Shown: one piece after another, positions 35,217 to 57,319 of the stretch | How the letters are laid out: each line of letters begins with the position of its first letter | Numbering within the stretch: position 1 is the first letter of the stretch | Assembly (NCBI GenBank): GCA_018656555.1 | Contig: JABHZQ010000023.1 | Span: forward strand, 2,875 to 66,874 | DNA: 64,000 bases | Source of the DNA: an archaeon | GTDB lineage: Archaea > Nanobdellota > Nanobdellia > SCGC-AAA011-G17 > GW2011-AR17 | Direction of reading: 5' to 3' | Notes under the pieces: model-generated | What the model was told of the DNA's origin: nothing | The model's input: the letters and a program-made list of their open reading frames with translations, nothing else | Database searches by the model: none | Made by a program: the position numbers and the translations under genes

Positions 35217-35219
35217 TTT

Positions 35220-39926: not shown

Positions 39927-39958
39927 TTTTTATAGTTTTTTAGTATATAAATGTTTTG

Positions 39959-42900: not shown

Positions 42901-43378
42901 AATATTCATCTTCTACTTCAGCAAACTCTGCATCCACTTCAGGATAATCTGCATCTATGTATTCACAATGGGCAGAAGTAGTATAAGAACAAATAGAATT
43001 TGCAATATTACAACAATTCTTCTGACATTGAGCCAAATTACATTCAGCATCTTCATACCAAGCATAACCTTCAGTATTTTCACAAACAGTTTTAGGAACA
43101 TTTTTAGAACACTTACCTATTTCAGAAATACAACAACCACCTTTACAATAAGAAGTCTGCTCACAAGTAACTGCAGAAGAAGAATAAGAAGCATCACATT
43201 GATCTTGTGTAGTATAAATACAAGATAAATCAGAAGTTGTTTTTTCACAACAATAATTTGTTTCAGTAATAACCTCTTCCTCAGCTGTAACTAACTCAAT
43301 ATTATAAACTGTAAAAATAGAAGCTATAATTATAAGAGTCATAAATAATGCCTTTGTTTTGAGAAAATCACCTCTCAT
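39959..43378 (-). CDS. Giant cysteine-rich secreted surface protein, paralog C (1139 aa) with an internal Gly/Ala/Val-rich hydrophobic hairpin
   Basis: N-terminus identical to paralog B (MRGDFLKTKALFMTLIIIASIFTVYNIELVTAEEE). Contains GESWCLYESPAGAYLDRPGSQHYRSYCYFGEE, ENCECLSDMWMVNASKWCSMAGDCGANFNILE, CELCDLP and ECTEYKCKSLGAAC motifs, plus an internal ~46-aa hydrophobic stretch. Confidence 0.7.
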   Translation of the reverse strand: MRGDFLKTKALFMTLIIIASIFTVYNIELVTAEEEVITETNYCCEKTTSDLSCIYTTQDQCDASYSSSAVTCEQTSYCKGGCCISEIGKCSKNVPKTVCENTEGYAWYEDAECNLAQCQKNCCNIANSICSYTTSAHCEYIDADYPEVDAEFAEVEDEYSCVDLCTASDKGCCVSDESCVYDTKDMCETPEIDLEGGTGFYKERLCSDLNLCGCIEHFEMKCVDEDVYWFDSCGNQETVVDSSDRDSDGNTAGINGECDYTKGTWCGYDDEDNAYCKTVNCDEKRDDGYYTWDGSYYYNLGDPGNIDNLGTEKDVNKHDERKMGGQRYHGESWCLYESPAGAYLDRPGSQHYRSYCYFGEEIVEPCRDYREEICIQVPYGGDESIVTAAACKDNNIYDSAISTNVSTVPKGNQFWGESETSTTCSEKTLTCDVTLTQQSQTAENWKCVENCECLSDMWMVNASKWCSMAGDCGANFNILEQESNDGFYMTVTLAELFGALNHKNKVGYDWDCHDEYGDEDYGLFSGSGGLCKGACNEIDETSCVLYLGMDMAKWYSGYGEDHGAGTDLDRASYYIDETPGLNLRNAYGVHGGLLGISEALENQAEIGMATEWLSDFKTPATILTVVVGAFGAIFAILALVGAVSGPVGAVVAAVAAVVVLIVQFLTGGGKSETITVSANCESWIPPSGGDFCELCDLPVSEGGLALDDGSGDVLAGYECTEYKCKSLGAACDYISENAGTEREKCFNAHINDVNHPIIEIDEDIFLKYDYTYNLDGTNGVSVTGVQPYTQFNYGIITDELSQCRIDTEPIESFDEMTEMFPDSYYSKNHNQTRVLTPDEEFNYYIRCQDPVGNWNINAFVMKVTTTAGEDVQAPMIESTDIASGSYIAADVSTPVVTIYLNEPTQECRWSYSDQEFDLMENYFIYGTGSIATQSAYYENYKAAVLNVTELGENYFYFACKDMAGNINSQNYAYVLKGTEPLNIDRTSPNGTVYYNDVALQVETSVGAEDGKAVCSYDAIEFFTTNASYHEQLLEDLSTNAYSYDILCQDVAGNQNSTTISFTVDIDTNAPGLGNVYVDEAFNSLVFETDEIATCEYLYEPFAFGEGTATSGTIALTDIQTYYIICEDEFGNQGSFTIEI

Positions 43379-43395
43379 TATAATATCAAATAATT

Positions 43396-43408
43396 TAATT
43401 ATTTAAAA
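43396..43408 (-). promoter_or_regulatory. Archaeal TATA-like box (TTTAAATA), about 20-30 bp upstream of the paralog C start. The same sequence recurs upstream of paralog B at ~46917-46929.
   Basis: The minus-strand reading of 43379-43410 is atttttaaataattaaattatttgatattata followed by ATG. The same 32 bp precede the gene at 46900. Confidence 0.35.
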
Positions 43409-46400
43409 ATCTTCTCCTTGCTCTTCTTGCTCTACTTCAATAGTATAAGAACCTTGATTCCCAAACACATCCTCACAAATTATATAATAAACTGATTCAG
43501 TTGCTGCAAAATAATAAGTATTTTCATCTAGTGTGCTTGTAGAAAATCCTGAACCATATTCAAATTCAAGTACATCATACTCACAGTAAGAAGTTTCATC
43601 TAATGAAAAATAAAGATTTACTCCTGATTGATATACTTCTGTTAATTCTGGTGCACTCATATCAATATCAACAATAAATGAAATAGTTGTTGAGTTTTGA
43701 TTACCTGCAACATCTTGACATAAAATATTATAATCATACTGACCTGCAGAAAGATCTTCTAATAATTGTTCGTGATAAGATGCATTACTTGCAAAAAATT
43801 CAATTCCATCATAATAACATACAGACTTTCCAGCCTCAGCACCAACAGAAGTCTCAACTTGTAATGCAACATCATTATAGTATATTGTTCCTTCTGGTGA
43901 AGTTCTATCAATATTCAAAGGCTCTGTTCCTTTTAACACAAAAGGATAAGTTTGTGTATTTGTATTATTATTATAATCCATACAAGAGAAGTAATATTGA
44001 TTATCTCCAATATTTGTAACATTCAATGCAGCCAAACAAGTATTAGCTGAATATACACTTTGAGAATAAACATTCCCAGAGCATAATGTATAATAATTCA
44101 TTAATTCATAATCTTGATCATAAAAAGACCATTTACACTGTGCAGGTTCATTAATATAAACATTTACAAGAGCATAATCTGTATTTGCAGCAATATAAGT
44201 TCCAGACGCAACATCAGTTGTTTCAATTACAGGAGTTTGTACATCCTCTCCAGGTTCAGTTTGTATTTTAAATTGATAAGGTGCTACAGTTGGATTGCCT
44301 GCTGCATCCTGACATTGGATATAATAAGTAAACTCTTCATCAGGTGTTAAGATTCTTGTTTGATTATGAGTTCTATCATAATAAGAGAATGGGAAAAATT
44401 CTGTCATCTCTTCATAAATAGGTAAAGGTTCTGTTGAAATCTTACATTGAGCTAATTCATTAGTCTCAATACCAAAATGAAATTGAGTATAAGGTGCTAT
44501 TCCAGTAACTGAAACCCCATTATTACCTTCTTGAGTATAGGAATAGCCATGTTCAATAAATAACTCCTCATTCAAAGTCATTTCTGGTGCATCAACTTCA
44601 TCTATAACATTATTAAAACATTTTTCTCTATCTGTTCCTAAATTTTCTGAAATAAACCCACATCCAACTCCTAAAGATTTACATTTATACTCAGTACATT
44701 CAAATCCAGGCAAAACCTTTCCAGAACCATCATCTATTGCTAACCCTCCTTGTGAAATAGGCAAATCACATAATTCACATAAATTTCCACCAGGCAAAGG
44801 CACCCAAGGTTCACAATTAGAAGAAACAATTACTGTTTGAGTATCACCTCCAGTAGAAAACAAATAGATTAATGCTGCTATTGATATTACTACTATAGCT
44901 ACAATCCATCCAACCACTGGAACAGAACTACTTGCTCCAGCAACAACTCCCAAAGCAGCAACAACTGCAACTGCAGCTTCAATTGCAGCTGTTATAACTA
45001 CAGTCACAATAATTCCTACAACTGCTCCCACCCCTAGAGCTACAAGCGCTGCTGTTAATCCATCTGATTGATAATCAGACAACCAATCTGCAGCTACTCC
45101 AGTTTCTAATTGATCAGCCATGGCTTTAGAAATACCAAGCAACCCACCATGAACACCATAAGCATTTTTTAAAGTATAAGAAGGATTATCATATTCAAAA
45201 TAACCTAACCTTTCACCCATTAAAACTTCTTCATTTGGTGCATCATAGACATTGTCATCTACACCAGTATACCAACTAGCCCTATACATCGAATCATAAA
45301 ATACACACCGATCATTATCAATTGGATCTCCCCCCTCTGCACAAACATTTTCAGATCCTTCTGTTGGGCACATATCATCAACCCCATAATCTTCTTCATG
45401 CCACCTATAATGACAATCCCAATTATAAGCAATCATAGTTTTATCTTGACCAGTCTTAAGATAATCTTGAGCTCTAGTCATATAAAAACCATCATTAGAA
45501 TACTGTTCTAAAATATTAAAATTAGCACCACAATCCCCTCCACTAGAACACCACTTTGAAGCATTAACCATCCAAACATCTGCTAAACAATCACAATTTT
45601 CAACACATCTCCATTGATTTGCTGCCCAATTTTTTTTACTAAAAGTTACTTGACACTCTAAACTTTTAGCAGTACAAGTAGTTAAAGCAGAATCCCCTGC
45701 CCAAAATTGATTTCCCTTTGGTACAGTAGAAATATTAGTATTCAATGGACTATCATAAATGTTATTATCTACACAAGCAGCCCCAGTTGCTTGTCCTGCC
45801 TCCCCTTGAAGATTTGTTGGATCATAAGGAGATTGAATACAAATCTCCTCTCTATAATCCCTACAAGTATCTATATATTCTTCACCAAAATAACAATAAG
45901 ATCTATAATGTTGAGAACCAGGCCTATCAAAATAAGCACCAGCAGGAGACTCATATAAACACCAAGACTCACCATGATATCTTTGCCCCCCCAACCTTCC
46001 ATCATGCTTATTTATTTTTTTCTCTCCTAAATTATCTAAATCTCCAGGAGCATTAATATTATAATGATAAATTCCATCAAAAGTATAAGTTCCATCTTCT
46101 CTTTTGTTTAAACAATCTGTAGTTTCACAAACTGCATTACCTCCACTATCATGACCACACCAAGTTCCAGCCTGGTAATCACAATCTTCAGCAACAGTCT
46201 CTTGATTACCACAAGTATCAAACCAATAAACATCATCCATCACACATTCTTTTCTATCCTTTGATTCACAATTACAAATATCAATCTCACTACAAAGAGT
46301 TTCCTTATAGAAACCATAACCAGTATCTATATCAATATCTGGTTCATCACACATCTCTCTTGTATCATATATACAAGATTCATCAGTTACACAACATCCT

Positions 46401-46900
46401 TGATCAGATGCAGTACACTGACTAGTACATGCATATTCATAATCCACTACAACAAACTCAGGATCTATTTCTGGATAATCATCACCAATATAATCACAAT
46501 TAGCTTCTGTTGTATAAGAACAAATAGAATTTGCAATATTACAACAATTCTTTCCACATTCAGGAATATCACACTCTGCATTATCATGCCAAGTATATCC
46601 TTCTGTACTTTCACAAACATATTTTGGTACATTCTTAGAACATTTTCCAGAATCAGAGATACAACAACCACCTTTACAATAAGTAGTTAGTTCACAAGAA
46701 GTTTGCGAAGAAAGATGAGCAGTATCACACTGGTCTTGAGTAGTATACAAACAATTTAACCCAGATAAAGTTTCCTCACAACAATACATAGGTTGTTCTT
46801 CTTCAGCTGTAACCAACTCAATATTATAAACTGTAAAAATAGAAGCTATAATTATAAGAGTCATAAATAATGCTTTTGTTTTGAGAAAATCACCTCTCAT
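43403..46900 (-). CDS. Giant cysteine-rich secreted surface protein, paralog B (1165 aa) with an internal hydrophobic multi-helix segment
   Basis: Same motif set as paralog C. Internal ~68-aa hydrophobic segment (LTAALVALGVGAVVGIIVTVVITAAIEAAVAVVAALGVVAGASSSVPVVGWIVAIVVISIAALIYLF). Confidence 0.7.
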   Translation of the reverse strand: MRGDFLKTKALFMTLIIIASIFTVYNIELVTAEEEQPMYCCEETLSGLNCLYTTQDQCDTAHLSSQTSCELTTYCKGGCCISDSGKCSKNVPKYVCESTEGYTWHDNAECDIPECGKNCCNIANSICSYTTEANCDYIGDDYPEIDPEFVVVDYEYACTSQCTASDQGCCVTDESCIYDTREMCDEPDIDIDTGYGFYKETLCSEIDICNCESKDRKECVMDDVYWFDTCGNQETVAEDCDYQAGTWCGHDSGGNAVCETTDCLNKREDGTYTFDGIYHYNINAPGDLDNLGEKKINKHDGRLGGQRYHGESWCLYESPAGAYFDRPGSQHYRSYCYFGEEYIDTCRDYREEICIQSPYDPTNLQGEAGQATGAACVDNNIYDSPLNTNISTVPKGNQFWAGDSALTTCTAKSLECQVTFSKKNWAANQWRCVENCDCLADVWMVNASKWCSSGGDCGANFNILEQYSNDGFYMTRAQDYLKTGQDKTMIAYNWDCHYRWHEEDYGVDDMCPTEGSENVCAEGGDPIDNDRCVFYDSMYRASWYTGVDDNVYDAPNEEVLMGERLGYFEYDNPSYTLKNAYGVHGGLLGISKAMADQLETGVAADWLSDYQSDGLTAALVALGVGAVVGIIVTVVITAAIEAAVAVVAALGVVAGASSSVPVVGWIVAIVVISIAALIYLFSTGGDTQTVIVSSNCEPWVPLPGGNLCELCDLPISQGGLAIDDGSGKVLPGFECTEYKCKSLGVGCGFISENLGTDREKCFNNVIDEVDAPEMTLNEELFIEHGYSYTQEGNNGVSVTGIAPYTQFHFGIETNELAQCKISTEPLPIYEEMTEFFPFSYYDRTHNQTRILTPDEEFTYYIQCQDAAGNPTVAPYQFKIQTEPGEDVQTPVIETTDVASGTYIAANTDYALVNVYINEPAQCKWSFYDQDYELMNYYTLCSGNVYSQSVYSANTCLAALNVTNIGDNQYYFSCMDYNNNTNTQTYPFVLKGTEPLNIDRTSPEGTIYYNDVALQVETSVGAEAGKSVCYYDGIEFFASNASYHEQLLEDLSAGQYDYNILCQDVAGNQNSTTISFIVDIDMSAPELTEVYQSGVNLYFSLDETSYCEYDVLEFEYGSGFSTSTLDENTYYFAATESVYYIICEDVFGNQGSYTIEVEQEEQGEDF

Positions 46901-46938
46901 TATAATATCAAATAATTTAATTATTTAAAAAACTAACT

Positions 46939-49900
46939 CTATAGAATATAATCTAAACTTACTATCAAAGGAGAATTTTGGTTACCAAATTCATCTTCAC
47001 ATATAACATAATACTCACTAATTCCTGGAGATACTGAAAAAGTATGATCTGTTGTTTCTGATCCAGTTGTTTCAAAACCAGAACCAAAAGTAAAAGATGA
47101 AACCTCATATTCACAAGTTGTTTCCTCATTTGTGATTATATAAACCATATTACTCAAATAAAATAAACTATCTACTTCTGGAGGATATTCATCAACATCC
47201 ATTGTAAAAGAAATTTGTGTTTCATTTCTATTTCCTGCAACATCTTCACAATAAATATCATAAACATAATCTCCTTCAGTCAATGTTTGTGATTGTACCC
47301 AAAGAGTATCTGAATCTTGTGATTCTGACATTTGATCATAAGTATATTGATTTGATTGTTTATAGTAACACACAGACTTTCCAGCCTCAGCACCTGCTTG
47401 AGTTCTTACTTGTAAATCTATCTCTTTGTAAGACACTATTCCTTCTGGTGATGTTTGTGTAATCAACAAAGGATCTGATTTTGTTACAGTCCATGGTGAA
47501 GATGAAGACATTACATTACCATATTGATCTTGACATAGGAAATAAAAATTATTAGGGCCATCAGTTATTGAAATTTCATCTCTACAATAATAATCTCCCT
47601 GAATAATATTTGCTGATGGAGAAATACAAGTATCCATATCATTTTCCATTAAATCAAAATTATCACTCTCTAAACTACTATACTTACAAGTTGCAGGAAC
47701 ATCAGTATAAGTCTGTAAGGTTATTGTTTCTGCAGTTGAAGGAGCATATTGCTCACTTGCAGGATCAAAATGGATATATGTTCCAGGGTAAGTAGTTGGA
47801 TCCTGTTCTGAAGCTTTCAACCCTATCTCAAAAATTCCATCATCAGTTTTTCCACAAATATCCTCACACCACACATAAAAACTTTTTTCTTCTCCATTAG
47901 AAAAAACATAACTAATATTATGCTTAAACTCATAAGCATCAACAGCCCAATCTGGAACCTCATAAACTCCAGGATTCATAAATAAGTTATATCTCTCTTC
48001 TGGATCAGTATAAGCTGCTGCCAATTGTCCAAGAGTAGAAACTCCCTCATGTTGATCTAAAATTTCTTGTACTCTCCAATCCTCAACAAATTTACACCTA
48101 GAGACAATGTTTGTTTCAACTCCAAAAGAAACCTTATAACCTGGAGGTATATTAGTTGCATCATAACCAGGATTATTAGTTGTTCTTTTCTGAATTTCAA
48201 TTGTTAATGGTGAAGTTGCAGTTGAATCAATTAAAGCATCATCATATTGAGAAATCTGTACAGACTCATTCAAGATACATTCCTCAGAAACACAAGAAGG
48301 ATGATTAATAGATCCTCTATTCCCTTCAATAAACTTACAATAAGATCCTAAACTTGTACATTTTGAAGCAGTACATGCTGCACCATCTATCCTCTTTCCA
48401 TCCTTACTAAACCACAATCCCCCTTCTTCAGAAGGCAAGTCACACAAATGGCAATTATCTCCATTATCTTGAGGTTCCCAAGCTTCACACCAATGTACAG
48501 ATCTTGCAGCCTTTTTATTATCACCTTCATGAATATTATCTTCCCACTCATACTCATAAAAAGTAAGTGGATTTGAATACTGACTAGCATAATCAAAACC
48601 AAAAGAAGTTGCTCTTAAAGATCTTGTATTCATAACCCAAGGTTTGATACTCTTCAGCTGATTATATAGTAATTCCTCTTTTGAAACTTTATAGGCATCT
48701 TCAGTACAGACATAACTAGTTTCTATTGCATCAGTATAATAATCCAGATAGTCGTCATCATAATCTGAACTTGACGAATAATCATAAATATAATCATACA
48801 TACAACCATCTATAGCACCCACTTCTTGTTTTGCTGAATGAACTTCACCTCCAAGATATGATTTTCCATCCTGCTCATAAGGCCTTTGTATATCATTTGA
48901 AGTTACAAGACCATAAGCTGCCATATTCTCTTTAGCAGAACTCCCTTCAACATAATTCAATCCCAAATTCTTAGATAATCTATCTACTCCACCAGTAGTA
49001 TAACAATTATATGCACTATACATATACAATCTACTCAAAGGTAAAAAAGAAGGAAACATAAAATCAGATAAAAAATTATCATTCACAGTATTTATTTCAA
49101 GATCCCCCTCATTCTTCAAAATAGGAACATAATATCTTCTAATATTAGCTGCTGAAGCTTTCATACAAGCTGAAGCACCAGGAATTCTACTAGAATGATA
49201 TAAAGAATAAAAAGAAGTTCCTTGAAGATATGATTCTGCTTGAGAACAATGATCATCTTCTAAGTCAAAACATTCACCCAAACCCAGACTAGCATCACTA
49301 TTCTCTCCTGCAATTTCTTCTTGGTTATAAGTTATATCAAATGAATCTGGCTGTCCTTCCTCTCCCAATATATTCAAATTAATCCCACAATCTCCTCTTG
49401 AACTACAATAATCCATTGAAGTTGCTATAAACTCAGATCTTAAACCAATTGCATTAGTAATTAACTCATAACCTTCTTCATCACTCCCCCCTCCTTGATC
49501 CCAAAAACCATAATCAATTGTAAAGGTAGCAGCATGACAATAATCATCAGCAGTGGTTGTCCAATCCTCTCTATACGTTCCCAAAGGGACTGTAGAAACT
49601 CCATACAAATATGTCCAATCTTCAGTAGATTTAATCGGCTGATTTATCTCACCATAAAACTCACCAAACCTATTATCATAGTTTATAGACCATTCAGACC
49701 AACTATCTTTTGCATCATTATAATCTGGTGTTGTAGAACAACTTCCAGAAGTAGAACACCATTTTCCAGAATGGTAAGGATAAGTATAATATTCTTCAAA
49801 ATTATTAGAAATACATTTGGCATCAGGATTCCCATTTTCATCAAAACTCATTGCACAATATTCTTCTCTTAAATCTCCACAATTTTCCCAAACCTCTTCT

Positions 49901-50919
49901 CCATCTACACAATAAGCCCTATAATGTTGTGTTCCAATTCTATCTCTAAAACTTCCAGTAGGTCCCTCATATACACACCAAGAATCTAAATTATTTCTTG
50001 TTTTACCCAATTCAAAAATTTCAAAATCTCCTTTTTTATTATTGTAAACAGTATAAGAATTTAACATCTCAAAATCAGCAGAATCTTGAAGTTCTTGAGT
50101 TATAGTATCTCCAACTTTAAATTCAAAAGTATCACTACAAGCAGTTGATCTACATGTAGCTTCCAAATCCTCATTAACATAACAAGCTTGACTAGGATAA
50201 CTACAAGAGTCACCAGTTAACATTATATCTCCACAAGTATTAGTCTCATAAAATTCATGATCTATTGTACAATCTTCTTGAGTGTAAACACAATTACAAG
50301 AAGCAGTATAAGTTCCTGATTCTAATTCTTTTTGAATATCAGCACAACTCTTTCCTTCATAATAACCATATCCGGTAGCTGTGTCTGTAGAAAGAGAACC
50401 TCTTTCCATCAAACATTCATCCCCAGTTAAATAAGTACATCCAGTTTCAGAAACACAACAACCCATTGCATCAAGATTATTATACAAATTACAAGCTTCC
50501 TCAGTTGTTACACCATTATTCCAAACTGGAGTCTCTTCATAAGCATCATAAGTTGCATAACAATTAGGTTCTGTAGTAAATGAATATTCATTTCCAAATT
50601 GGCAACAACCTTTTGAACAAGCAGTAGTAGTACATTCTTCATCACTAGACCAAGTACCTCCTGCTTGAGTACAAGTATAATCAGGAACACCTTTAGAACA
50701 AACACCATCAGCAGAAACACAACAACCAATTGCACAAACAGTAGTTTCATTACAAGGAGAAGAATAAAATTCATCTGGAGCAGAACTACAAGCACCATCA
50801 TCAGTATAAACACAATACATACCTGTTGTCTTTTCCTTACAACAACCATCAACTGCCATAACAAAAGGAACTATAAGTAAAATAAATACTAGAATAATCA
50901 ACCCCTTTTCTAATTTCAT
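46939..50919 (-). CDS. Giant cysteine-rich secreted surface protein, paralog A (1326 aa)
   Basis: Signal peptide MKLEKGLIILVFILLIVPFVMA. GCC Cys modules, a DSWCVYEGPTGSFRDRIGTQHYRAYC core, CHLCDLP, and the C-terminal C.D..GN.N modules (YCEDVAGNRNETQISF; YYVICEDEFGNQNS). Confidence 0.7.
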   Translation of the reverse strand: MKLEKGLIILVFILLIVPFVMAVDGCCKEKTTGMYCVYTDDGACSSAPDEFYSSPCNETTVCAIGCCVSADGVCSKGVPDYTCTQAGGTWSSDEECTTTACSKGCCQFGNEYSFTTEPNCYATYDAYEETPVWNNGVTTEEACNLYNNLDAMGCCVSETGCTYLTGDECLMERGSLSTDTATGYGYYEGKSCADIQKELESGTYTASCNCVYTQEDCTIDHEFYETNTCGDIMLTGDSCSYPSQACYVNEDLEATCRSTACSDTFEFKVGDTITQELQDSADFEMLNSYTVYNNKKGDFEIFELGKTRNNLDSWCVYEGPTGSFRDRIGTQHYRAYCVDGEEVWENCGDLREEYCAMSFDENGNPDAKCISNNFEEYYTYPYHSGKWCSTSGSCSTTPDYNDAKDSWSEWSINYDNRFGEFYGEINQPIKSTEDWTYLYGVSTVPLGTYREDWTTTADDYCHAATFTIDYGFWDQGGGSDEEGYELITNAIGLRSEFIATSMDYCSSRGDCGINLNILGEEGQPDSFDITYNQEEIAGENSDASLGLGECFDLEDDHCSQAESYLQGTSFYSLYHSSRIPGASACMKASAANIRRYYVPILKNEGDLEINTVNDNFLSDFMFPSFLPLSRLYMYSAYNCYTTGGVDRLSKNLGLNYVEGSSAKENMAAYGLVTSNDIQRPYEQDGKSYLGGEVHSAKQEVGAIDGCMYDYIYDYSSSSDYDDDYLDYYTDAIETSYVCTEDAYKVSKEELLYNQLKSIKPWVMNTRSLRATSFGFDYASQYSNPLTFYEYEWEDNIHEGDNKKAARSVHWCEAWEPQDNGDNCHLCDLPSEEGGLWFSKDGKRIDGAACTASKCTSLGSYCKFIEGNRGSINHPSCVSEECILNESVQISQYDDALIDSTATSPLTIEIQKRTTNNPGYDATNIPPGYKVSFGVETNIVSRCKFVEDWRVQEILDQHEGVSTLGQLAAAYTDPEERYNLFMNPGVYEVPDWAVDAYEFKHNISYVFSNGEEKSFYVWCEDICGKTDDGIFEIGLKASEQDPTTYPGTYIHFDPASEQYAPSTAETITLQTYTDVPATCKYSSLESDNFDLMENDMDTCISPSANIIQGDYYCRDEISITDGPNNFYFLCQDQYGNVMSSSSPWTVTKSDPLLITQTSPEGIVSYKEIDLQVRTQAGAEAGKSVCYYKQSNQYTYDQMSESQDSDTLWVQSQTLTEGDYVYDIYCEDVAGNRNETQISFTMDVDEYPPEVDSLFYLSNMVYIITNEETTCEYEVSSFTFGSGFETTGSETTDHTFSVSPGISEYYVICEDEFGNQNSPLIVSLDYIL

Positions 50920-50992: not shown

Positions 50993-51577
50993 ATGAAAAA
51001 GTGGGTGCATAAGGTAGAGGTTATTGTAGATTGGATAATTCCCTTTGCAGTTCTAATCCTATTAGGAGTTATTATTGTTGAACTATTCTTCCATGATTTT
51101 GCAGAAACTTATCATTTAGCCATTACAATAATTGATGCAACAGTAATTGGAATATTTGTTATTGATCTAATTTTCAAATGGATCAGAATTAGACATATTA
51201 AACCATTCATAAAAGAATGTTGGTTAGATATTATTGCAGTATTTCCATTTTTCTTAGTTTTTAGAGTAGTTGAAAGATTTTTAATCTTACTAGAATTATC
51301 TGGAGATATTAAACAATTCCAAATGCTATTTCATGAAGGTTTAGAATTAAGAAAAAGTGGATCTAGTATCTTAAAGGAAGGTGGAAAGATTGTCCAAGAA
51401 GCTGAAAAAGCTGGAAAGTTAAGTAGAGTACAACAGATAGTAAGATATATTAAACCCATTCAAAGAAGTCCAAGATTACTAAAGGCACTACCATTTTTTG
51501 AAAAACCCTCAGGAAAACATCACATTCACAAATCAATCTTAAATAAAAAGAAATGGTGGGGGTTCTGGAAGAAATGA
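50993..51577 (+). CDS. Hypothetical membrane protein (ion-transport-like TM region)
   Basis: Three or four TM helices. No pore signature seen. Confidence 0.35.
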   Translation: MKKWVHKVEVIVDWIIPFAVLILLGVIIVELFFHDFAETYHLAITIIDATVIGIFVIDLIFKWIRIRHIKPFIKECWLDIIAVFPFFLVFRVVERFLILLELSGDIKQFQMLFHEGLELRKSGSSILKEGGKIVQEAEKAGKLSRVQQIVRYIKPIQRSPRLLKALPFFEKPSGKHHIHKSILNKKKWWGFWKK

Positions 51578-52281
51578 TCTGGAAATTTCTACTCCGAATG
51601 GGTGGATTCTTTGTTTTTGGTATTTCTATTCTCTTATTTGTAGTGGGATTATTCTTAGTTAACTTTCAAAGTAACCTAGAAAACTTTGATGGGATAGTCA
51701 ATAAATCTGTTGATAATTTCTTTGATGATAACAGAGAAGAGATTTTAGTAAATTTTGGTGTTGATTATGAAGATGAATGTGAAAATGGATTAATTTCAGC
51801 AGAAGATTGTGAAATGATGGATGTAATGATAGATGATGCCTTTATTTTAGCAAAAGAAGAATCTAAAGAAAGCATGAGTGTTTTATTTGAAGAGATAGGA
51901 TTTGAAGCCTATGATACTGACAGATTATTTGCTATTTCAATAATATTCTTTGTTATTGCTTTTTTCTTAGTATTCTATGGACATAGAAAAAGTTTTGTTA
52001 GAACATTTAGAGGATTTTCAATTCAAACTGGACTCTCCTTTTTACTACTATACATAGCCCTATCTGAATTGGTAAAAATGAAAATATCTGATTTATACTC
52101 AATGATAAACATGCCTATGGAAATGTCTGAATTAGCAATAGATCTTGTTCAGGTTTTAGTTGCAGAATTAATTTTTTATCCCATCCAACAAATGTTATTA
52201 CCTTTCTTAATAATCTCAATTAGTGGTTTTATTTTGTTTGTGATGTTTTTGATTTTAGCTTGGCAACATGTTGAAACTTAA
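51553..52281 (+). CDS. Hypothetical membrane protein
   Basis: N-terminal and C-terminal TM helices with an acidic central region. Confidence 0.35.
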   Translation: MVGVLEEMIWKFLLRMGGFFVFGISILLFVVGLFLVNFQSNLENFDGIVNKSVDNFFDDNREEILVNFGVDYEDECENGLISAEDCEMMDVMIDDAFILAKEESKESMSVLFEEIGFEAYDTDRLFAISIIFFVIAFFLVFYGHRKSFVRTFRGFSIQTGLSFLLLYIALSELVKMKISDLYSMINMPMEMSELAIDLVQVLVAELIFYPIQQMLLPFLIISISGFILFVMFLILAWQHVET

Positions 52282-53425
52282 CTTTATTTTTATGTATTAA
52301 GGGTTTTGTCATTATTGGTAACACCTTAAAAGGATCTCTATTTGTTTCTAAAGTAATATCTATTATTTCCTTAATAGTAGAATTATTCATATCTTTTGCC
52401 ATATTATTTAGAAGATTATTTCTAGTAATCCCCATCTTATACTGATTTACTAGTTTTTGAGTATTAAAAGAAATTATTCCAAAGTTTTTATCTATCTTCC
52501 CCACTGGAGTTTTACTCAACTCTCTTGTAAACTTAACAAATTCCCTTTCTTGTTCTCTATCAGTCTTAAACTTCTTATTAATATCATAAAATACTGGAGA
52601 CCAAGCTATTATAATCACAATTAATAGTAATAAGTAAAAATAAAAAGGTGCATCAAAAGTTGCAAAGTCAAATAAAAAGAAAAAACAAACAACCATTAAT
52701 ACCAAAGATATAATTACAAAAATTAAATATTTAATTTTAAACTTCAAAGAGAAAAAAATAGCTTTTGTTTCTCGCCATAGATTTTTTACCACTCTTCTTT
52801 TATGTTCTCTTAATGTAGATTCTGCTTTTTCCTTAAGATAAGCTAAAGTCTGTTGAGGATTATTTATCCTTTTTGCAAGATTTTGTAAAAACACTCTATA
52901 CCTATCAGAAGGAGTTAGTTGTGAAGTTTCTAATAAAGCTTCAGCCAAAGATGTTTTCTTTAACTGAGTAAAATTAATTATCCTTAATGCTTCTATCTTA
53001 GAATCTCTTGATTTCAATAAAGGTTTAAATAAATCAAGTTTAGTCAAACCAATTTCTGATAATGCAGCTAAAAGAGAGATTGTAAAGGGAAGATTTCTCT
53101 CAATTCTATTTCTTTTTTCATTAGCTTTTAGTTTCGGTACAATTAAGAATAACAATACTGAAATTATTACCATTACTGCAGTAATCATCAAAGGATAAAA
53201 CATTACATAGGCATATAATAAGATCACAGAAAGTGCAGAACCTATAGCTAATATCAAAAAAGTAGTCAAATACATTATACTAAGATAAGTAATTGATAAT
53301 ACTGGCATTCCAGAATAAACTATATTTTTCTGTAAATTATTATAAAATTTAGGAAATATTTTTATTGTAAAGTTAGTTAAAGGTTCAAAAGCCAAATTAG
53401 CTATTTTTACATATATTCCTTTCAT
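52229..53425 (-). CDS. Polytopic membrane protein with FlaJ/TadC/PilC (T2SS-F)-like topology; candidate filament-assembly platform
   Basis: TM block, cytoplasmic domain, second TM block, cytoplasmic domain. Translationally coupled (ATGA at 53422-53425) to the upstream FlaI-like gene in the order ATPase→membrane protein, as in flaI-flaJ / pilB-pilC. Confidence 0.4.
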   Translation of the reverse strand: MKGIYVKIANLAFEPLTNFTIKIFPKFYNNLQKNIVYSGMPVLSITYLSIMYLTTFLILAIGSALSVILLYAYVMFYPLMITAVMVIISVLLFLIVPKLKANEKRNRIERNLPFTISLLAALSEIGLTKLDLFKPLLKSRDSKIEALRIINFTQLKKTSLAEALLETSQLTPSDRYRVFLQNLAKRINNPQQTLAYLKEKAESTLREHKRRVVKNLWRETKAIFFSLKFKIKYLIFVIISLVLMVVCFFFLFDFATFDAPFYFYLLLLIVIIIAWSPVFYDINKKFKTDREQEREFVKFTRELSKTPVGKIDKNFGIISFNTQKLVNQYKMGITRNNLLNNMAKDMNNSTIKEIIDITLETNRDPFKVLPIMTKPLIHKNKVKFQHVAKLKSKTSQTK

Positions 53426-54573
53426 ATTAATCCTGCTCTTTTTAGGACAGCAGTTCTATCTTTATAATAAACATTTATTACCTGTCTAAAATCTTTTAGA
53501 TTTAGCTTATTATGGGTTAACACAAGTAACAGTTTAGTTCTTAACTTTAACTCATCATTTAATGTTTGAGTATTAAGAAATAGACTTTCTTTAGGATTTT
53601 GATAAAATTTATCACCCTTTTTTACAAATATTTCTTTCCCCTTCTCTTTTATCTTATATATAGTCTTATTCTCCACGTAAAAAACAAAGAAATTTTGTTC
53701 ATCTACAGTTTTAGACACCAATATAGGAGACCCATTGCCCAAGTAAGGAATATCTTTTATCAAAGCAAACTCTTCATTAGCTGCAGTATCAGAAAAAATA
53801 TACTCACAATTTTTATTTAAAGTAATATTTGTTTCATTAGTTAACACTCTTGAATTTGAGGGTAAAAAGATATTAGCAGTAGATAGTAAATTATCAGTTA
53901 ACATAATCGGTTTCCTATTCTCAATCAACATCCATAGAAAAGCAAGCATTTCTGGAGAAGCATTTTTATTCAATAAAAGTGAAATTGGATTCTTATCCTC
54001 TGTTTTCTTTGTAATTGTTATTGAGTTTTCTGTTCTCTCCACCACTATCCCTTTATTATCTTCTTCTACTATTGCTAACTTTTTACCTATCTTCTGAAAC
54101 CCATCTTCAGCCAATTGTATATTAGTTGTCAAGGTACCATATAAAACATGATTAATCATTGTAGGACCAGTTTTTTTACACACTATCTTCTGAATCATAG
54201 GATCTTCCATTAAAGGTTCTATTCTCCAAAGACCCAAAAACTCAATATATATCAAATAGAATATCTTTTGGTATTCTTCCTGTGTTGTTTTAATATGAAG
54301 TTCATCTTTTATTTTATCTATTGCTTCTTTTAGGTTGATTAATCTATTTTCAGCATAGATACTGAAATTCATCTGTTCAACCAACCCATTCTTTATTTTA
54401 TTATATTTTTCTTGATCCTCTGCAGTTAATTGAGGTTCAGTAACTTGGTATATATTTTGATAAATTCTAGCTGTAACAAAATTACTAAAAATCTCATAAG
54501 AAACCTGATTATTTTCTAGTTTTTCTGGCAAATGAGGTATTCTTTTGCTAGTTAAGAATGCTATACTCTCCAT
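53422..54573 (-). CDS. FlaI/PilB/VirB11-family secretion-ATPase homolog with degenerate Walker A, Asp-box and Walker B motifs (predicted catalytically inactive)
   Basis: NASPEMLAFLWMLIENRKPIML resembles the conserved ISPEMAA(F/Y)LWLAIE… segment that precedes Walker A in archaeal FlaI. The expected GxTGSGKTT is replaced by TDNLLSTAN. SRVLTNETNITL aligns to the ERIVTIEDTPEL Asp box, and PILVSKTVDEQ aligns to Walker B IIVGEVRGEE. The alignment is from memory and not computed. Confidence 0.4.
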   Translation of the reverse strand: MESIAFLTSKRIPHLPEKLENNQVSYEIFSNFVTARIYQNIYQVTEPQLTAEDQEKYNKIKNGLVEQMNFSIYAENRLINLKEAIDKIKDELHIKTTQEEYQKIFYLIYIEFLGLWRIEPLMEDPMIQKIVCKKTGPTMINHVLYGTLTTNIQLAEDGFQKIGKKLAIVEEDNKGIVVERTENSITITKKTEDKNPISLLLNKNASPEMLAFLWMLIENRKPIMLTDNLLSTANIFLPSNSRVLTNETNITLNKNCEYIFSDTAANEEFALIKDIPYLGNGSPILVSKTVDEQNFFVFYVENKTIYKIKEKGKEIFVKKGDKFYQNPKESLFLNTQTLNDELKLRTKLLLVLTHNKLNLKDFRQVINVYYKDRTAVLKRAGLI

Positions 54574-54661
54574 TTTTAGAATTCAGGGAGTTTTAGCTTA
54601 TATATATTTCGTCTTTTAGAATTCCAAAAAATATTTAAAGCCTATAAAAATTAGTCTCTGA

Positions 54662-57319
54662 ATGGATGGATTGCCTGAAAGTAATACTGAAGAGGTTTCT
54701 AGTGAGAAAGATATCTTACAAAAAAGAAAAGAACAGCTTCTAGCTAAATTTAAAGGCAATAAAAACTGGCTGGCTTATATCATTTTAATTGTTATTGTTT
54801 ACTTGGGATACTTTCTAAGAACTAGAAATCTAGCCTATTTAACAGATATAACAACTGGAAAATATATTCCATTAGCATTAGATCCATTTGCTTTTTTAAG
54901 ATATGTAGAATATCTAGTTGAAAATGGCTCTTGGATGACTTTTGATGCTCTTCGTTATTATCCTTGGGGATATGGTTTAACAAACGAGTTTAAGTTTTTG
55001 AGTTATCTAATTACCTATATGTATAAGATTTGGAGTTTTTTTGTACCTTCTATCACACTCGAGTATGTCCATGTTATGTACCCAGTTGTTTGTTTCATGA
55101 TTGCTATAGTATTCTTTTACTTATTTGTAAGAGATGTATTTGATTGGAGAGTTGGATTATTAGCTTCTGCATTCTTAACTGTCTTACCTGCCTATCTATA
55201 TAGAACAATGGCTGGATTTGCAGATAAAGAAAGTGCAGCTATGATGTTTATGTTTATTGGTTTGTACTTCTTTGTTAGGTATGTTAAAACCAAGAAATTA
55301 ACAAGCAAACTAATCCTTGCTGCAATTTCAGGTATCTCTATTGGTTTTATGGGTTTGATTTGGGGAGGAGTTAGTTTCATGTTTTTGGCAGTTGGAGGAT
55401 ATATTCTCTTAAATGTATTCTTTAACAATTTTAGTAAATCTGACTTTTATGGAATATTTGCATTTATAGCTGCTCTAGCCTTAACAATGTGGGTAGGTTA
55501 TCCAGAAAAATATTCAATTATTAACTTACTAACTTCAGATACTTCTGGAATTATGTTTTTAGCTTTTGCAGTTGCTCTAGTAAACTACATTGTTTTCCAA
55601 AAAGATCTATTAAAATTAAAATCTAAACTAAAATTTATCAACTTGCCACCAGGTGTTACCTCTTTAATTTTTATTGTTATCCTAGTATTCATTGCAGGTA
55701 TCTCTGCTTATGGTCTTGAATTTATCACAGGAAGAATATCTGGTTTATGGAGTACCATGATCAATACTCCTTCATCCAGATGGATTCTAACTGTTGCTGA
55801 ATCTCATCAACCTTACTTTATTGATGTAATCAATCAATTCAATTGGAAGTTTGTTGTTTTATTCTTCGCGGGTGCTACATTCCTATTCTATAGTATTGTA
55901 AGACATCTAAAAGAAAAATATTATCTAACTGGTGGATTTTTAGCTTTTATCTTATTATTTTCATTTAGCAGATATAAACAAACCTCTGTTCTAGATGGAG
56001 AAACAAATCTAGCTCTTGCTTTATACGCTGGATCTTTAGCCATATTTGTAATTGGATTAGCTTACTATTATTTATACTCTTACTACAAAGATAAAGAAAC
56101 TTATCTTCAATTTAATAATTTTGATAAATCATTTGTATTAATCTTAGTTGTATTCTTTTTCCTACTTATTGGAGCTAGAACAGCGATTAGGTTATTATTT
56201 TCATTTGCACCAATTGCTGCTATTCTAAGTGCATTTGCAGTATTCTTTATTATTGACAAATCAAAAGTGTTCAAGGACAATATTTATAGAATTGGAACAA
56301 TTGCAGTGATTGCAGCTTTAGCAATATTTATGTTATTCAGTTTTTACAATACTACATTAAGTCAAGCTAAATATACTGGCCCTAGTTATAATCAACAGTG
56401 GCAAGTCGGAATGGATTGGGTTAGAGATAGTACTCCTACAGATGCAGTATTTGCACACTGGTGGGATTATGGTTACTGGGTGCAATATGGTGGAGAAAGA
56501 GCTACACTATCTGATGGAGGAAATGCTTTAGGAGATATTAACCATTTTGTTGGAAGACATCTATTAACTGCTGAAGATGAAAATGAAGCCCTAGAATACT
56601 TAGCTGCTAGAAACACAACTCATGTCTTAATGATAAGTGATGAAATAGGAAAATATGGTGCTTACTCTTCAATTGGTGCTGATGAAAATTATGATAGATA
56701 CTCTTGGATTAATACTTACTCTTTAGATTATGATCAAATGCAAGAAACAAGAAATGGAACTATTTTCACATATGTTGGGGGTACTGTTTTAGATGAAGAT
56801 GTAATCTATCAAGATCAAGTTTACCCTGCTATGAGTGCAGGAATTGCAGGATTTGTTATTCCTACAATAGTTGAAAATAATGGTACAGAAGTAACCTATG
56901 AGCAACCTACTGCAGTGATCTCTTACCAAGGTCAACAAGTTGGTATGCCTTTGAAATGTATATACATAGAATACAGTAGTGAATATATCGAGTTTGATAC
57001 TGATGGAGAATATTTAGATGCTTGTTTACATTTAATACCTACATATAGTGGAGAGGATTATAATCCTATTGGAGCTGGACTCTACCTTTCACCTAGAGTT
57101 TCTAAGGGATTATTTGGAAGACTTTATTTAATGGAGTTAGAGGAGGAGTTTCCACACTTTGAATTAGCTTATACTGATGAGAGCAGCATGCCTCTTTCTA
57201 TATACAATGGACAATTAATTGGACCACTTAAAATTTGGGAAGTAACCTATCCAGATGATTTAGTTATTCCTCAAGAATATTTTGGTACAGAAGCTGATCC
57301 TAGTGTAATTATGGTTTAA
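54662..57319 (+). CDS. aglB: Oligosaccharyltransferase AglB (STT3 family), 885 aa
   Basis: 13-TM N-terminal domain with the catalytic WWDYGYW (WWDYG) motif, followed by a C-terminal soluble domain. Confidence 0.85.
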   Translation: MDGLPESNTEEVSSEKDILQKRKEQLLAKFKGNKNWLAYIILIVIVYLGYFLRTRNLAYLTDITTGKYIPLALDPFAFLRYVEYLVENGSWMTFDALRYYPWGYGLTNEFKFLSYLITYMYKIWSFFVPSITLEYVHVMYPVVCFMIAIVFFYLFVRDVFDWRVGLLASAFLTVLPAYLYRTMAGFADKESAAMMFMFIGLYFFVRYVKTKKLTSKLILAAISGISIGFMGLIWGGVSFMFLAVGGYILLNVFFNNFSKSDFYGIFAFIAALALTMWVGYPEKYSIINLLTSDTSGIMFLAFAVALVNYIVFQKDLLKLKSKLKFINLPPGVTSLIFIVILVFIAGISAYGLEFITGRISGLWSTMINTPSSRWILTVAESHQPYFIDVINQFNWKFVVLFFAGATFLFYSIVRHLKEKYYLTGGFLAFILLFSFSRYKQTSVLDGETNLALALYAGSLAIFVIGLAYYYLYSYYKDKETYLQFNNFDKSFVLILVVFFFLLIGARTAIRLLFSFAPIAAILSAFAVFFIIDKSKVFKDNIYRIGTIAVIAALAIFMLFSFYNTTLSQAKYTGPSYNQQWQVGMDWVRDSTPTDAVFAHWWDYGYWVQYGGERATLSDGGNALGDINHFVGRHLLTAEDENEALEYLAARNTTHVLMISDEIGKYGAYSSIGADENYDRYSWINTYSLDYDQMQETRNGTIFTYVGGTVLDEDVIYQDQVYPAMSAGIAGFVIPTIVENNGTEVTYEQPTAVISYQGQQVGMPLKCIYIEYSSEYIEFDTDGEYLDACLHLIPTYSGEDYNPIGAGLYLSPRVSKGLFGRLYLMELEEEFPHFELAYTDESSMPLSIYNGQLIGPLKIWEVTYPDDLVIPQEYFGTEADPSVIMV

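What the first reader, a model, noticed from the sequence alone, without database searches (positions are those of the whole stretch)
52229..54573. FlaI/PilB-like pseudo-ATPase translationally coupled to a FlaJ/TadC-like membrane protein, beside the pilin/giant-protein array
The 383-aa protein keeps the FlaI-type pre-Walker-A segment (SPEMLAFLWMLIENRKPIML). It has lost the P-loop lysine (GSGKTT → LLSTAN) and the catalytic acidic residues (Asp box E-D → E-T; Walker B GEVRGEE → SKTVDEQ), and it lacks the C-terminal His-box region.

It overlaps a polytopic FlaJ/TadC-like gene by ATGA, in the canonical ATPase→platform order. The resulting pair looks like a filament-assembly core whose ATPase is predicted to be dead.

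That implies one of two things. Either there is a regulatory or scaffolding pseudo-enzyme that works with an ATPase encoded elsewhere, or there is an assembly mechanism that does not need this ATPase's activity. In both cases it links the giant-protein locus to type-IV-filament machinery.
Basis: partly seen in the sequence, partly recalled or inferred. Interest (0 to 1): 0.65.

Follow-up and report, generated by a model that had tools for sequence, protein, structure and literature searches.

The report
Dead pilus ATPase pair beside AglB
An uncultivated DPANN (Woesearchaeota-type) archaeon keeps, under purifying selection, a type-IV-pilus ATPase that has lost its ATP-binding loop and a shortened membrane partner, and this pair almost always sits next to the N-glycosylation enzyme AglB, which suggests a pilus motor core reused for a job that needs no motor.

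Summary
Genes at 53422-54573(-) (383 aa) and 52229-53425(-) (398 aa) overlap by ATGA.

The 383-aa protein is a real homologue of archaeal FlaI/GspE secretion ATPases:
- family profile vs PDB 2OAP, E=6e-21
- AlphaFold model vs 2OAP/FlaI by Foldseek, E=1e-20 to 1e-17

The Arg of TIRKF, the Walker B Glu and the His box are also gone, and about 135 aa of the catalytic core are reduced to about 50.

The 398-aa protein is a shortened FlaJ/TadC (T2SSF) relative with no trailing transmembrane segment.

This is not decay. The dead family is monophyletic (100/100 NJ bootstrap), has about 10 clusters at 50% identity, dN/dS of 0.056, and a conserved BRE/TATA promoter.

New here: the constant neighbour is AglB, not the giant proteins. 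AglB lies divergent and adjacent in 18 of 20 P-loop-less loci with enough upstream sequence, and in none of the roughly 135 intact-ATPase loci.

My best reading is a non-catalytic membrane scaffold co-regulated with N-glycosylation, but that function is inferred. I could not test whether the same genome encodes an intact paralogue. I found no prior description. I rate it a new variant of a known kind, of moderate interest.

The parts
53422..54573 (-). 383-aa non-catalytic FlaI/GspE-type protein. The N-terminal domain, hinge, pre-Walker-A helix and C-terminal helices are kept. The P-loop is deleted and the catalytic core is shrunk.
   Evidence: ORF. BLASTP to intact T2SSE proteins P0008/P0009, E=4e-20 and 7e-20. 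Profile vs PDB 2OAP E=6.3e-21 and FlaI 4IHQ E=4.8e-4. NCBIfam FlaI model E=3.7e-13, 49 bits against a cutoff of 550. AF2 model pLDDT 84.8, pTM 0.81. Foldseek 2OAP 1.3e-20, FlaI 1.6e-18. Pfam T2SSE hits 0 of 15 family members.
53872..53958 (-). Codons 206-234: the conserved pre-Walker-A helix SPEMLAFLWMLIENRKPIML, then the site of the 7-residue P-loop deletion (T226/D227), then LLSTAN, the remnant of the helix that follows the P-loop.
   Evidence: Alignments. The same deletion is present in all 24 P-loop-less loci and absent from the roughly 135 intact loci. This is the most conserved segment of the dead family.
52229..53425 (-). 398-aa shortened FlaJ/TadC (T2SSF)-type membrane protein. It has two TM hairpins, each followed by a cytoplasmic helical domain, and no TM segment after the second domain.
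   Evidence: NCBIfam ArlJ/FlaJ E=1.8e-13, 50 bits against a cutoff of 550, residues 47-209. hhalign: N half vs a 456-aa T2SSF protein, 95%, E=1.7e-8; C half vs the N part of a 279-aa T2SSF protein, 98%, E=3.4e-14. Homologue in L013 passes Pfam T2SSF with 33.8 bits against 25.2, and 3 of 8 members pass. JGI names the identical protein 'archaellum biogenesis protein FlaJ (TadC family)'. Hydrophobic segments. The family ends in register. AF2 pLDDT 67.5, and the top PDB fold hits are EpsF, PilC and OutF cytoplasmic domains at a weak E of about 1.
53422..53425 (-). ATGA overlap: the stop codon of the ATPase homologue and the start codon of the platform gene.
   Evidence: Sequence read. The same 4-nt overlap occurs in L001, L004, L006 and the contigs of P0004 and P0005. 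Distant members have a gap of about 100 nt instead.
54574..54661 (.). 88-bp divergent intergenic region with two conserved BRE/TATA-like boxes. One (GAAATATATATAAGC) lies about 27 nt before the ATPase-homologue ATG. The other (TTTAAATATTTTTTGG, read on the other strand) lies before aglB.
   Evidence: Alignment of nine lineages shows invariant TTTA.ATA.TTT and AAA..TAT.TAA blocks in an otherwise diverged spacer of 80-88 nt. The promoter interpretation is inferred from the archaeal BRE/TATA consensus.
54662..57319 (+). AglB/STT3 oligosaccharyltransferase (885 aa, WWDYG motif present), divergently transcribed. It is the near-invariant neighbour of the dead pair.
   Evidence: Pfam STT3 4.2e-16 and STT3-PglB_core 3.2e-8. 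Adjacent and divergent in L001, L004, L005, L006, L008-L013, L092-L094, L096-L100 and the P0005 contig. Absent from all intact-ATPase loci.
50993..52281 (+). Two small polytopic membrane proteins (194 aa and 242 aa), convergent with the pair. The 242-aa gene overlaps the 3' end of the platform gene by 53 nt. They are conserved only in the closer lineages.
   Evidence: ORFs. Homologues in L001, L004, L006 and L007. Weak Ion_trans hit for the 194-aa protein, E=3.3e-4, below the cutoff.
32813..50919 (-). Context array. It holds four giant Cys-rich secreted proteins (1296, 1139, 1165 and 1326 aa). It also holds five small ORFs with pilin-like N-termini ([KR]G/AQ followed by a hydrophobic helix) at 32813-33238, 33235-33750, 33728-34729, 34719-35216 and 39159-39926.
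   Evidence: Translations. N-termini and hydrophobic segments. Only faint Big_13 hits. 62-66 Cys per giant protein. The association with the pair is limited to the window's subclade.

Best explanation
Shown:
- The two genes encode a reduced derivative of the core of an archaeal type-IV-filament machine.
- The FlaI/GspE-type protein keeps its N-terminal domain, hinge, pre-Walker-A helix, a skeletal beta-sheet and the C-terminal helices.
- It has lost the P-loop (7-aa deletion), the TIRKF arginine, the Walker B glutamate and the His box, so it cannot bind or hydrolyse ATP in the canonical way.
- Its partner looks like a collapsed fusion of the two T2SSF genes that follow intact ATPases in related DPANN genomes. 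It retains four TM helices and two cytoplasmic domains.
- The loss happened once, in an ancestor of a Woesearchaeota clade. Both genes have since been kept under purifying selection with their own conserved promoter.
- The pair is almost always back to back with aglB, at the edge of an N-glycosylation gene cluster.

Inferred:
- The two proteins form a stable, ATP-independent complex at the membrane. The dead ATPase docks on the cytoplasmic domains of its dedicated platform, as FlaI does on FlaJ.
- This complex acts as a scaffold or adaptor in envelope biogenesis and is co-regulated with AglB. It is not a filament-assembly motor.
- Any filament assembly from the nearby pilin-like genes would need an intact ATPase encoded elsewhere in the genome.
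For: Homology and fold.

Loss of every catalytic motif, shared by the whole family.

Single origin: shared indels, plus NJ monophyly at 100/100.

Functional maintenance:
- dN/dS of 0.056 for the ATPase homologue and 0.11 for the platform, window vs L006
- about 10 clusters at 50% identity, spanning 28-57% identity to the query
- conserved BRE/TATA boxes
- the same protein assembled on at least 22 contigs from different samples

Dedicated partner: the platform gene lies immediately downstream in every locus with enough sequence, with an ATGA overlap in the close clade.

Platform identity and reduction.

What stays most conserved is the hinge plus pre-Walker-A helix and the C-terminal helices. 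The remnant of the catalytic domain is the least conserved, as expected if interactions rather than catalysis are selected.

AglB linkage: AglB is adjacent in 18 of 20 P-loop-less loci with enough upstream sequence. It is adjacent in 0 of the roughly 135 intact-ATPase loci, although the downstream flanks have been rearranged.

No other ATPase-like sequence exists in the 64-kb window.
Against: - No experiment and no complex model supports the proposed docking or scaffold role.
- The family is monophyletic, so the AglB adjacency could be inherited from one ancestor without a functional link. The many loci are not independent events.
- One lineage (L007/L095) keeps the pair without an adjacent AglB.
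- The neighbouring giant and pilin-like proteins are depleted, not enriched, in N-X-S/T sequons: O/E 0.33-0.74 for the giants and 0 sequons in three of the five pilin-like ORFs. They do not look like preferred AglB substrates.
- I could not determine whether the same genome has an intact FlaI-like paralogue that might form mixed rings with this protein.
- The platform model has only moderate confidence (pLDDT 67.5).
Confidence: 0.5

Rival explanations
1. A regulatory or structural subunit of an active motor. The dead protein joins mixed hexamers with, or competes against, an intact FlaI/PilB-type ATPase encoded elsewhere in the genome. It would tune or anchor assembly of filaments made from the nearby pilin-like proteins. 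The AglB adjacency would be incidental.
For: The N-terminal domain and the inter-domain helix, which form subunit contacts in FlaI/GspE rings, are retained and are the most conserved parts. Five pilin-like ORFs lie in the window with no intact ATPase nearby, so an ATPase must act in trans if they are assembled. Intact FlaI-like ATPases are widespread in Woesearchaeota and Pacearchaeota.
Against: The dead protein has its own dedicated, co-evolving and (in the close clade) translationally coupled platform, rather than sitting next to an active ATPase. It lacks the arginine that would complement a neighbour's active site. Pilin-like genes are absent from the flanks of the distant members. No intact ATPase on the listed hits shares a contig with the pair (contig lengths compared). 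This last point is weak, because the hit list is truncated.
Confidence: 0.3
2. A module dedicated to the giant-protein and pilin array. The pair would help export, anchor or display the giant Cys-rich proteins, and the link to AglB would be only inherited synteny.
For: In the window, L004 and the contigs of P0004 and P0005, the pair lies 1.3-1.5 kb from the first giant gene, with the same two small membrane genes in between.
Against: Distant members of the same family (L007, L009-L013) have no giant proteins or pilins downstream. They have OapABC, SUF, archease or RtcB-type genes instead. The giants carry Sec-type signal peptides, not pilin-type ones.
Confidence: 0.12
3. A decaying relic of a type IV pilus operon, that is, a pseudogene that still has an open frame.
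For: Large internal deletions and faster evolution than intact relatives: mean within-family distance 1.18 against 0.65.
Against: dN/dS is 0.056 at dS 0.63. Open frames of similar length occur in about 24 loci spanning 28-93% identity, all with the same indels. The promoter is conserved, and so is the partner gene.
Confidence: 0.02
4. Still an active NTPase that binds nucleotide in a non-canonical way.
For: None directly. A reduced beta-sheet core is still predicted.
Against: There is no P-loop or GK[ST] anywhere in the protein. The Arg finger, Walker B Glu and His box are all lost, and the remnant is the least conserved region.
Confidence: 0.03

Closest known systems
Archaeal secretion ATPases FlaI/ArlI (Sulfolobus acidocaldarius, PDB 4IHQ/4II7) and GspE of Archaeoglobus fulgidus (PDB 2OAP)
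   Same: Same two-domain fold and the same archaeal branch. These are the best sequence-profile and structural matches. The N-terminal domain, the GL..IEPL..DP motif, the pre-Walker-A helix and the C-terminal YY.(N/D)...VLK.(A/F)G(I/L) tail are shared. The gene sits upstream of a FlaJ/TadC-type gene.
   Different: The P-loop is deleted. The TIRKF Arg, the second Asp-box acid, the Walker B Glu and the His box are lost. The protein is about 125 aa shorter. It fails Pfam T2SSE and the NCBIfam FlaI cutoff. No FlaH, FlaX or archaellin genes are nearby.
Intact FlaI-like ATPase plus two T2SSF genes of DPANN type IV pilus loci (for example L002 with P0008, L014, L025)
   Same: These are the closest intact relatives, at 25-30% identity. 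The gene order ATPase then T2SSF is the same. The platform's N half matches the 450-aa T2SSF gene and its C half matches the 280-aa T2SSF gene.
   Different: Those loci have an intact GGT(A/G)SGKT P-loop, two separate T2SSF genes, often pilin genes upstream, and never AglB within the fetched flanks. Here there is one fused and truncated platform gene, a dead ATPase and an adjacent AglB.
FlaH/ArlH of the archaellum motor, a RecA/KaiC-like ATP-binding protein that does not act as the motor ATPase (from my own knowledge and PMC5019145)
   Same: A precedent for a non-motor member of an ATPase fold serving as a structural or regulatory part of a type-IV-filament machine.
   Different: It is a different fold family. 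FlaH still has a Walker A motif and binds ATP, and it works alongside active FlaI in the same operon. Here the FlaI homologue itself is the dead component.
Paralogous PilB/PilC pairs of Haloferax volcanii (PMC6491452) and paralogous ATPase/tadC operons of euryarchaea (PMC4858521)
   Same: Duplicated ATPase and platform pairs that co-evolve as dedicated partners and can sit apart from pilin genes.
   Different: Those paralogues are catalytically intact. The 2016 census of archaeal type IV pilus systems does not mention inactivated ATPases or AglB/STT3 neighbours.

Membership tests
Secretion ATPase superfamily (PilB/GspE/FlaI/VirB11; Pfam T2SSE PF00437) | Two-domain fold: N-terminal PAS-like domain plus RecA-like C-terminal domain | tested here: met
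   AF2 model pLDDT 84.8. Foldseek hits: 2OAP 1.3e-20, FlaI 1.6e-18, CpaF 2e-11, VirB11 9e-6. The C-terminal domain is present only as a reduced sheet plus the terminal helices.
Secretion ATPase superfamily (PilB/GspE/FlaI/VirB11; Pfam T2SSE PF00437) | Walker A P-loop GxxxxGK[ST] | tested here: not met
   7-residue deletion at the P-loop position. No GK[ST] in the protein. The same holds in all 24 family loci.
Secretion ATPase superfamily (PilB/GspE/FlaI/VirB11; Pfam T2SSE PF00437) | Asp box, Walker B (hhhhGE) and His box | tested here: not met
   SIEDT becomes TNETN. The Walker B Glu position is variable (D/N/Q/W). The His box lies in a 19-27-aa deletion.
Secretion ATPase superfamily (PilB/GspE/FlaI/VirB11; Pfam T2SSE PF00437) | Passes the curated profile thresholds | tested here: not met
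   No Pfam T2SSE hit at E<=1, and 0 of 15 family members hit. NCBIfam FlaI gives 49 bits against a cutoff of 550.
Secretion ATPase superfamily (PilB/GspE/FlaI/VirB11; Pfam T2SSE PF00437) | ATP hydrolysis and hexamer formation | not testable with these tools
   Needs biochemistry, or multimer modelling that was not available.
Platform proteins FlaJ/TadC/PilC/GspF (Pfam T2SSF PF00482) | T2SSF helical cytoplasmic domain recognisable by profile | tested here: inconclusive
   The window protein itself gets no Pfam T2SSF hit. NCBIfam ArlJ/FlaJ gives E=1.8e-13 but below the cutoff. hhalign to two Pfam-positive T2SSF proteins gives 95% and 98%. 3 of 8 family members pass Pfam T2SSF. Fold hits to EpsF, PilC and OutF domains are weak, E about 1. 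Superfamily membership is well supported, but the protein fails the curated thresholds on its own.
Platform proteins FlaJ/TadC/PilC/GspF (Pfam T2SSF PF00482) | Two repeats, each a cytoplasmic domain followed by transmembrane helices | tested here: not met
   The second cytoplasmic domain ends the protein. No hydrophobic segment follows residue 284. The whole family ends in register. Only residues 3-135 of the 279-aa T2SSF relative are covered.
Platform proteins FlaJ/TadC/PilC/GspF (Pfam T2SSF PF00482) | Encoded next to its cognate ATPase gene | tested here: met
   Immediately downstream in every locus with enough sequence.
Archaellum (arl/fla) operon | FlaH, FlaF/G, FlaC/D/E or FlaX, and archaellin genes accompany FlaI and FlaJ | tested here: not met
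   None were found among the window ORFs scanned with Pfam and NCBIfam, or in related loci.
Archaeal type IV pilus locus | Pilins with class III signal peptides and a prepilin peptidase | tested here: inconclusive
   Five ORFs have [KR]G/AQ plus a hydrophobic N-terminus. They get no significant pilin profile hits; the best is a weak BasB match at E=0.0025. No prepilin peptidase was found in the window. Distant members of the pair lack such ORFs nearby.

The most novel reading that the evidence does not exclude
The dead FlaI-like protein and its truncated FlaJ-like partner have been taken over by the N-glycosylation pathway. They would form an ATP-independent accessory complex of the oligosaccharyltransferase AglB. 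It might hold membrane-anchored substrates (class-III-signal-peptide or other envelope proteins) at the glycosylation site, position AglB at that site, or handle the lipid-linked glycan. That would be a function no type-IV-filament core component is known to have.
Probability: 0.2. Interest if true: 0.8.

Novelty: new variant of a known kind. Interest (0 to 1): 0.55.

Why it matters
Type-IV-filament machines (pili, archaella, type II secretion) are defined by a hexameric ATPase that drives a polytopic platform protein. This locus shows a lineage in which that exact pair has been kept for a long evolutionary time after the ATPase lost everything needed for catalysis, and after the platform lost part of its membrane domain.

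That gives a natural separation-of-function case. It shows which parts of FlaI/GspE are worth keeping when only interactions matter: the N-terminal domain, the hinge helix and the C-terminal helices.

The tight, lineage-wide pairing with AglB, which was never seen for intact ATPases, points to an unrecognised link between pilus-type machinery and N-glycosylation, or envelope assembly more broadly, in DPANN archaea. The surface biology of these archaea is central to their symbiotic lifestyle and is largely unknown.

There is also a practical point for annotation. These proteins are labelled 'hypothetical', or in one source 'FlaJ', which could lead to false inference of pili or motility.

Tried and rejected
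Domain scans of the two proteins alone:
- Pfam found neither T2SSE nor T2SSF. Homologue-based profiles, NCBIfam and structure comparison overturned that.
- The weak MFS_1, Claudin and DUF2207_C hits for the membrane protein are below cutoff, cover only hydrophobic helices and were discarded.
- The profile of the membrane family against PDB sequences gave only a spurious HIT-protein match.

Searches for an intact ATPase:
- None in the window, by Pfam on essentially all ORFs of at least 100 aa or by tblastn with five intact ATPases.
- Comparing contig lengths found no intact ATPase on a carrier contig, but the hit list is truncated, so this says little.

Other tests:
- A test of whether neighbouring surface proteins are sequon-rich AglB substrates showed they are depleted instead.
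- P0135 (455 aa, P-loop intact, partly reduced core) was examined as a possible intermediate. Its short contigs show neither AglB nor a platform gene, so it was set aside.
- Pseudogene decay was rejected on dN/dS and family breadth.
- A mobile-element origin was considered because of the integrase at 24661-25917. It was rejected because the pair sits in a conserved chromosomal context 27 kb away.

Literature searches found no description of a P-loop-less FlaI/PilB homologue or of an AglB-linked pilus core.

Technical failures:
- The first tree script timed out.

Full report
**1. What is at the coordinates**

The window has about 30% G+C. It encodes an S-layer protein, an AglB/STT3 oligosaccharyltransferase, many glycosyltransferases and radical-SAM/SPASM enzymes.

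The identical membrane protein is deposited as 'HOD38_01245 [archaeon]'. The nearest genome representative, at 93% identity, is a 'Candidatus Woesearchaeota archaeon' MAG. The organism is therefore an uncultivated DPANN archaeon.

They overlap by ATGA.

**2. The 383-aa protein is a FlaI/GspE homologue without a catalytic site**

Pfam alone finds nothing. A database search returns seven close relatives of 365-387 aa with no Pfam domain. It also returns intact 506-522-aa T2SSE proteins at E of about 3e-12.

BLASTP aligns residues 12-253 with residues 25-309 of an intact protein (E=4e-20). The last 78 residues align with that protein's C-terminal tail.

Further evidence of homology:

| Test | Result |
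|---|---|
| Family profile vs PDB 2OAP (A. fulgidus GspE) | E=6.3e-21 |
| Family profile vs FlaI (4IHQ/4II7) | E=4.8e-4 |
| NCBIfam FlaI model | E=3.7e-13, 49 bits, cutoff 550 |
| AlphaFold2 model | pLDDT 84.8, pTM 0.81 |
| Foldseek vs 2OAP | 1.3e-20 |
| Foldseek vs FlaI | 1.6e-18 |
| Foldseek vs CpaF, PilB, VirB11, PilT | progressively weaker |

The alignments show what is missing:
- The seven residues that hold GxxxxGK[ST] are deleted.
- The Arg of the TIRKF motif is replaced.
- The second Asp-box acid is replaced (SIEDT becomes TNETN).
- A 34-aa segment is deleted.
- The Walker B Glu position is variable.
- The His box lies in a further deletion.

In total about 135 residues of the core are reduced to about 50. 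The protein contains no GK[ST] anywhere.

**3. The 398-aa protein is a reduced FlaJ/TadC-type platform**

- It matches the NCBIfam ArlJ/FlaJ model (E=1.8e-13, residues 47-209, below the cutoff).
- One source names the identical protein FlaJ.
- Profile-profile comparison shows two halves. The N half corresponds to the second T2SSF repeat of a 456-aa T2SSF protein (95%). The C half corresponds to the first 135 residues of a 279-aa T2SSF protein (98%). Those are the two platform genes that follow an intact ATPase in a related DPANN locus.
- A 32%-identical family member passes Pfam T2SSF outright, and 3 of 8 members do.
- The protein has hydrophobic segments only at residues 40-103 and 222-284.
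- The whole family ends in register after the second cytoplasmic domain, with no trailing TM helix.
- The structure model has moderate confidence (pLDDT 67.5). Its best PDB matches are the cytoplasmic domains of EpsF, PilC and OutF, with weak statistics.

The partner is therefore also a cut-down version, consistent with a fusion and truncation of the usual two T2SSF genes.

**4. It is a maintained family, not a wreck**

- An exhaustive profile search of 1.84 billion cluster representatives found 802 relatives at E<=1e-3. About ten representatives, of 375-427 aa, match over the full length. All of them lack the P-loop and share the same deletions.
- Scans of GTDB genomes and JGI metagenomes added loci L006-L013 and L091-L101, all without a P-loop. 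About 135 other fetched loci have an intact GGT(A/G)SGKT.
- In a neighbour-joining tree of 74 proteins the dead family is monophyletic in 100 of 100 bootstraps. It evolves faster than its intact relatives: mean distance 1.18 against 0.65.
- For the one comparison that is not saturated (window vs L006, dS about 0.6), dN/dS is 0.056 for the ATPase homologue and 0.11 for the platform.
- Within the family, the hinge plus pre-Walker-A helix, the GL..IEPL..DP motif and the C-terminal helices are the most conserved parts. The remnant of the catalytic domain is the least conserved.

**5. The invariant neighbour is AglB, not the giant proteins**

AglB lies immediately upstream and divergent, 80-88 nt away, in 18 of the 20 P-loop-less loci that have enough upstream sequence: L001, L004-L006, L008-L013, L092-L094, L096-L100 and the window. 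The JGI contig of P0005 shows the same arrangement. The two loci without it, L007 and L095, belong to one lineage.

AglB is absent from the flanks of every intact-ATPase locus: none among loci L014-L085 and none of 69 among loci L102-L170.

The short spacer contains two blocks that are invariant across nine lineages. They read as back-to-back BRE/TATA promoters about 25-30 nt from each start codon. The promoter reading is an inference from the archaeal consensus.

Beyond AglB lie other glycosylation genes, also recurrent: a Glycos_transf_4 enzyme, GT2, LPG_synthase_TM and PMT_2.

On the other side nothing is constant:
- The window's subclade has two small membrane genes and then giant Cys-rich proteins.
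- More distant members have OapABC, SUF, archease or RtcB-type genes.

These loci descend from one ancestor, so they are not independent observations. Retention of the trio while both outer flanks were reshuffled, at 29-34% protein identity, is the pattern usually taken to indicate functional coupling. That is general knowledge of prokaryotic gene-order decay, and it is an inference here.

**6. How it most likely works**

Shown: a catalytically void FlaI-type protein and a dedicated, truncated platform have been co-inherited and selected, with their own promoter shared with aglB.

Inferred:
- The two proteins form a stable membrane complex.
- The complex serves as a scaffold or adaptor in envelope biogenesis rather than as a motor.
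- Any assembly of the five pilin-like ORFs in the window must use an ATPase encoded elsewhere, because the window holds no other ATPase-like sequence.

I put about 0.5 on this overall reading and about 0.2 on the stronger version, in which the complex works directly with AglB.

Against the stronger version, the neighbouring giant and pilin-like proteins are depleted in N-X-S/T sequons.

The main rival, at about 0.3, is a regulatory or structural subunit of an active motor encoded elsewhere. I could not test this because only 64 kb of the genome was available to me and the collection scans could not be restricted to one genome.

**7. Comparison with what is known, and novelty**

The fold and lineage are those of FlaI/GspE, and the partner belongs to the T2SSF superfamily. 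Neither protein meets the defining catalytic or architectural features of those families, nor the curated profile thresholds (see the membership table). No archaellum genes accompany them.

FlaH is a precedent for a non-motor ATPase-fold component, but it is a different family and still binds ATP.

The 2016 census of archaeal type IV pilus systems does not mention inactivated ATPases or AglB neighbours. Seven further full-text searches found no description.

I classify it as a new variant of a known kind. It is of moderate interest, and of higher interest if the AglB link proves functional.

Noticed in passing
Loci L016, L024, L049, L054, L063, L102, L117, L123, L124, L149, L169 (intact ATPase ORFs of about 960-1510 aa): Several intact FlaI-like ATPases of related DPANN archaea are about twice the normal length or more. 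Their sequence breaks off inside the P-loop ('GSGKC...') or straight after the Asp box ('SIEDS...'). This looks like intein insertion at catalytic motifs.
   Followed up: no
window 22571-22906(-), 23372-24112(-), 24661-25917(-): There is a VirB2/TrbC-type type IV secretion pilin (Pfam T4SS_pilin 3.2e-16). It lies near a TrmB-family regulator and a tyrosine recombinase (Phage_integrase 2.6e-8). This may be a remnant or part of an integrated conjugative element.
   Followed up: no
window 35220-50919(-): Four giant secreted proteins (1139-1326 aa) each have 62-66 cysteines, concentrated in an N-terminal CC-rich region, and Ig-like C-terminal parts. Two of them (1139 and 1165 aa) have an internal hydrophobic block at about residues 612-687. 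All are depleted in N-glycosylation sequons, O/E 0.33-0.74.
   Followed up: partly
window 50993-51577(+): This 194-aa membrane protein has a weak, sub-threshold Ion_trans (voltage-sensor or channel-like) match at E=3.3e-4. It is the best-conserved gene of the neighbourhood, 71% identical to its L004 counterpart against 54% for the ATPase homologue.
   Followed up: no
L007 6782-8205, L010 18455-19860, L013 12812-14256: In distant carriers the AglB, dead-ATPase and platform trio lies within a few kb of origin-associated protein genes (an OapA-like GTPase, OapB and OapC). The trio may therefore sit near the replication origin in those genomes.
   Followed up: no
window 26363-28394(-): Three tandem, mutually overlapping paralogous genes (226-245 aa) have weak GT2/Anp1-like glycosyltransferase similarity and near-identical internal motifs (for example 'YFLSLEQDVIPP'). 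This looks like a recent local triplication inside the glycosylation island.
   Followed up: no
P0135 (455 aa; loci L086, L087): This relative keeps a Walker A motif (GPAKSGKS) and an Asp box (SVEDN). It has a shortened core and the same C-terminal tail, so it may be intermediate between intact and dead forms. Its short contigs show neither AglB nor a platform gene.
   Followed up: partly
window 1218-2300, 4341-5444, 7903-9084, 14356-15420, 57321-58322, 59990-61132: Six radical-SAM genes, four of them with SPASM domains, are scattered through the glycosylation island. That is an unusually high density and hints at unusual sugar or peptide modification chemistry.
   Followed up: no
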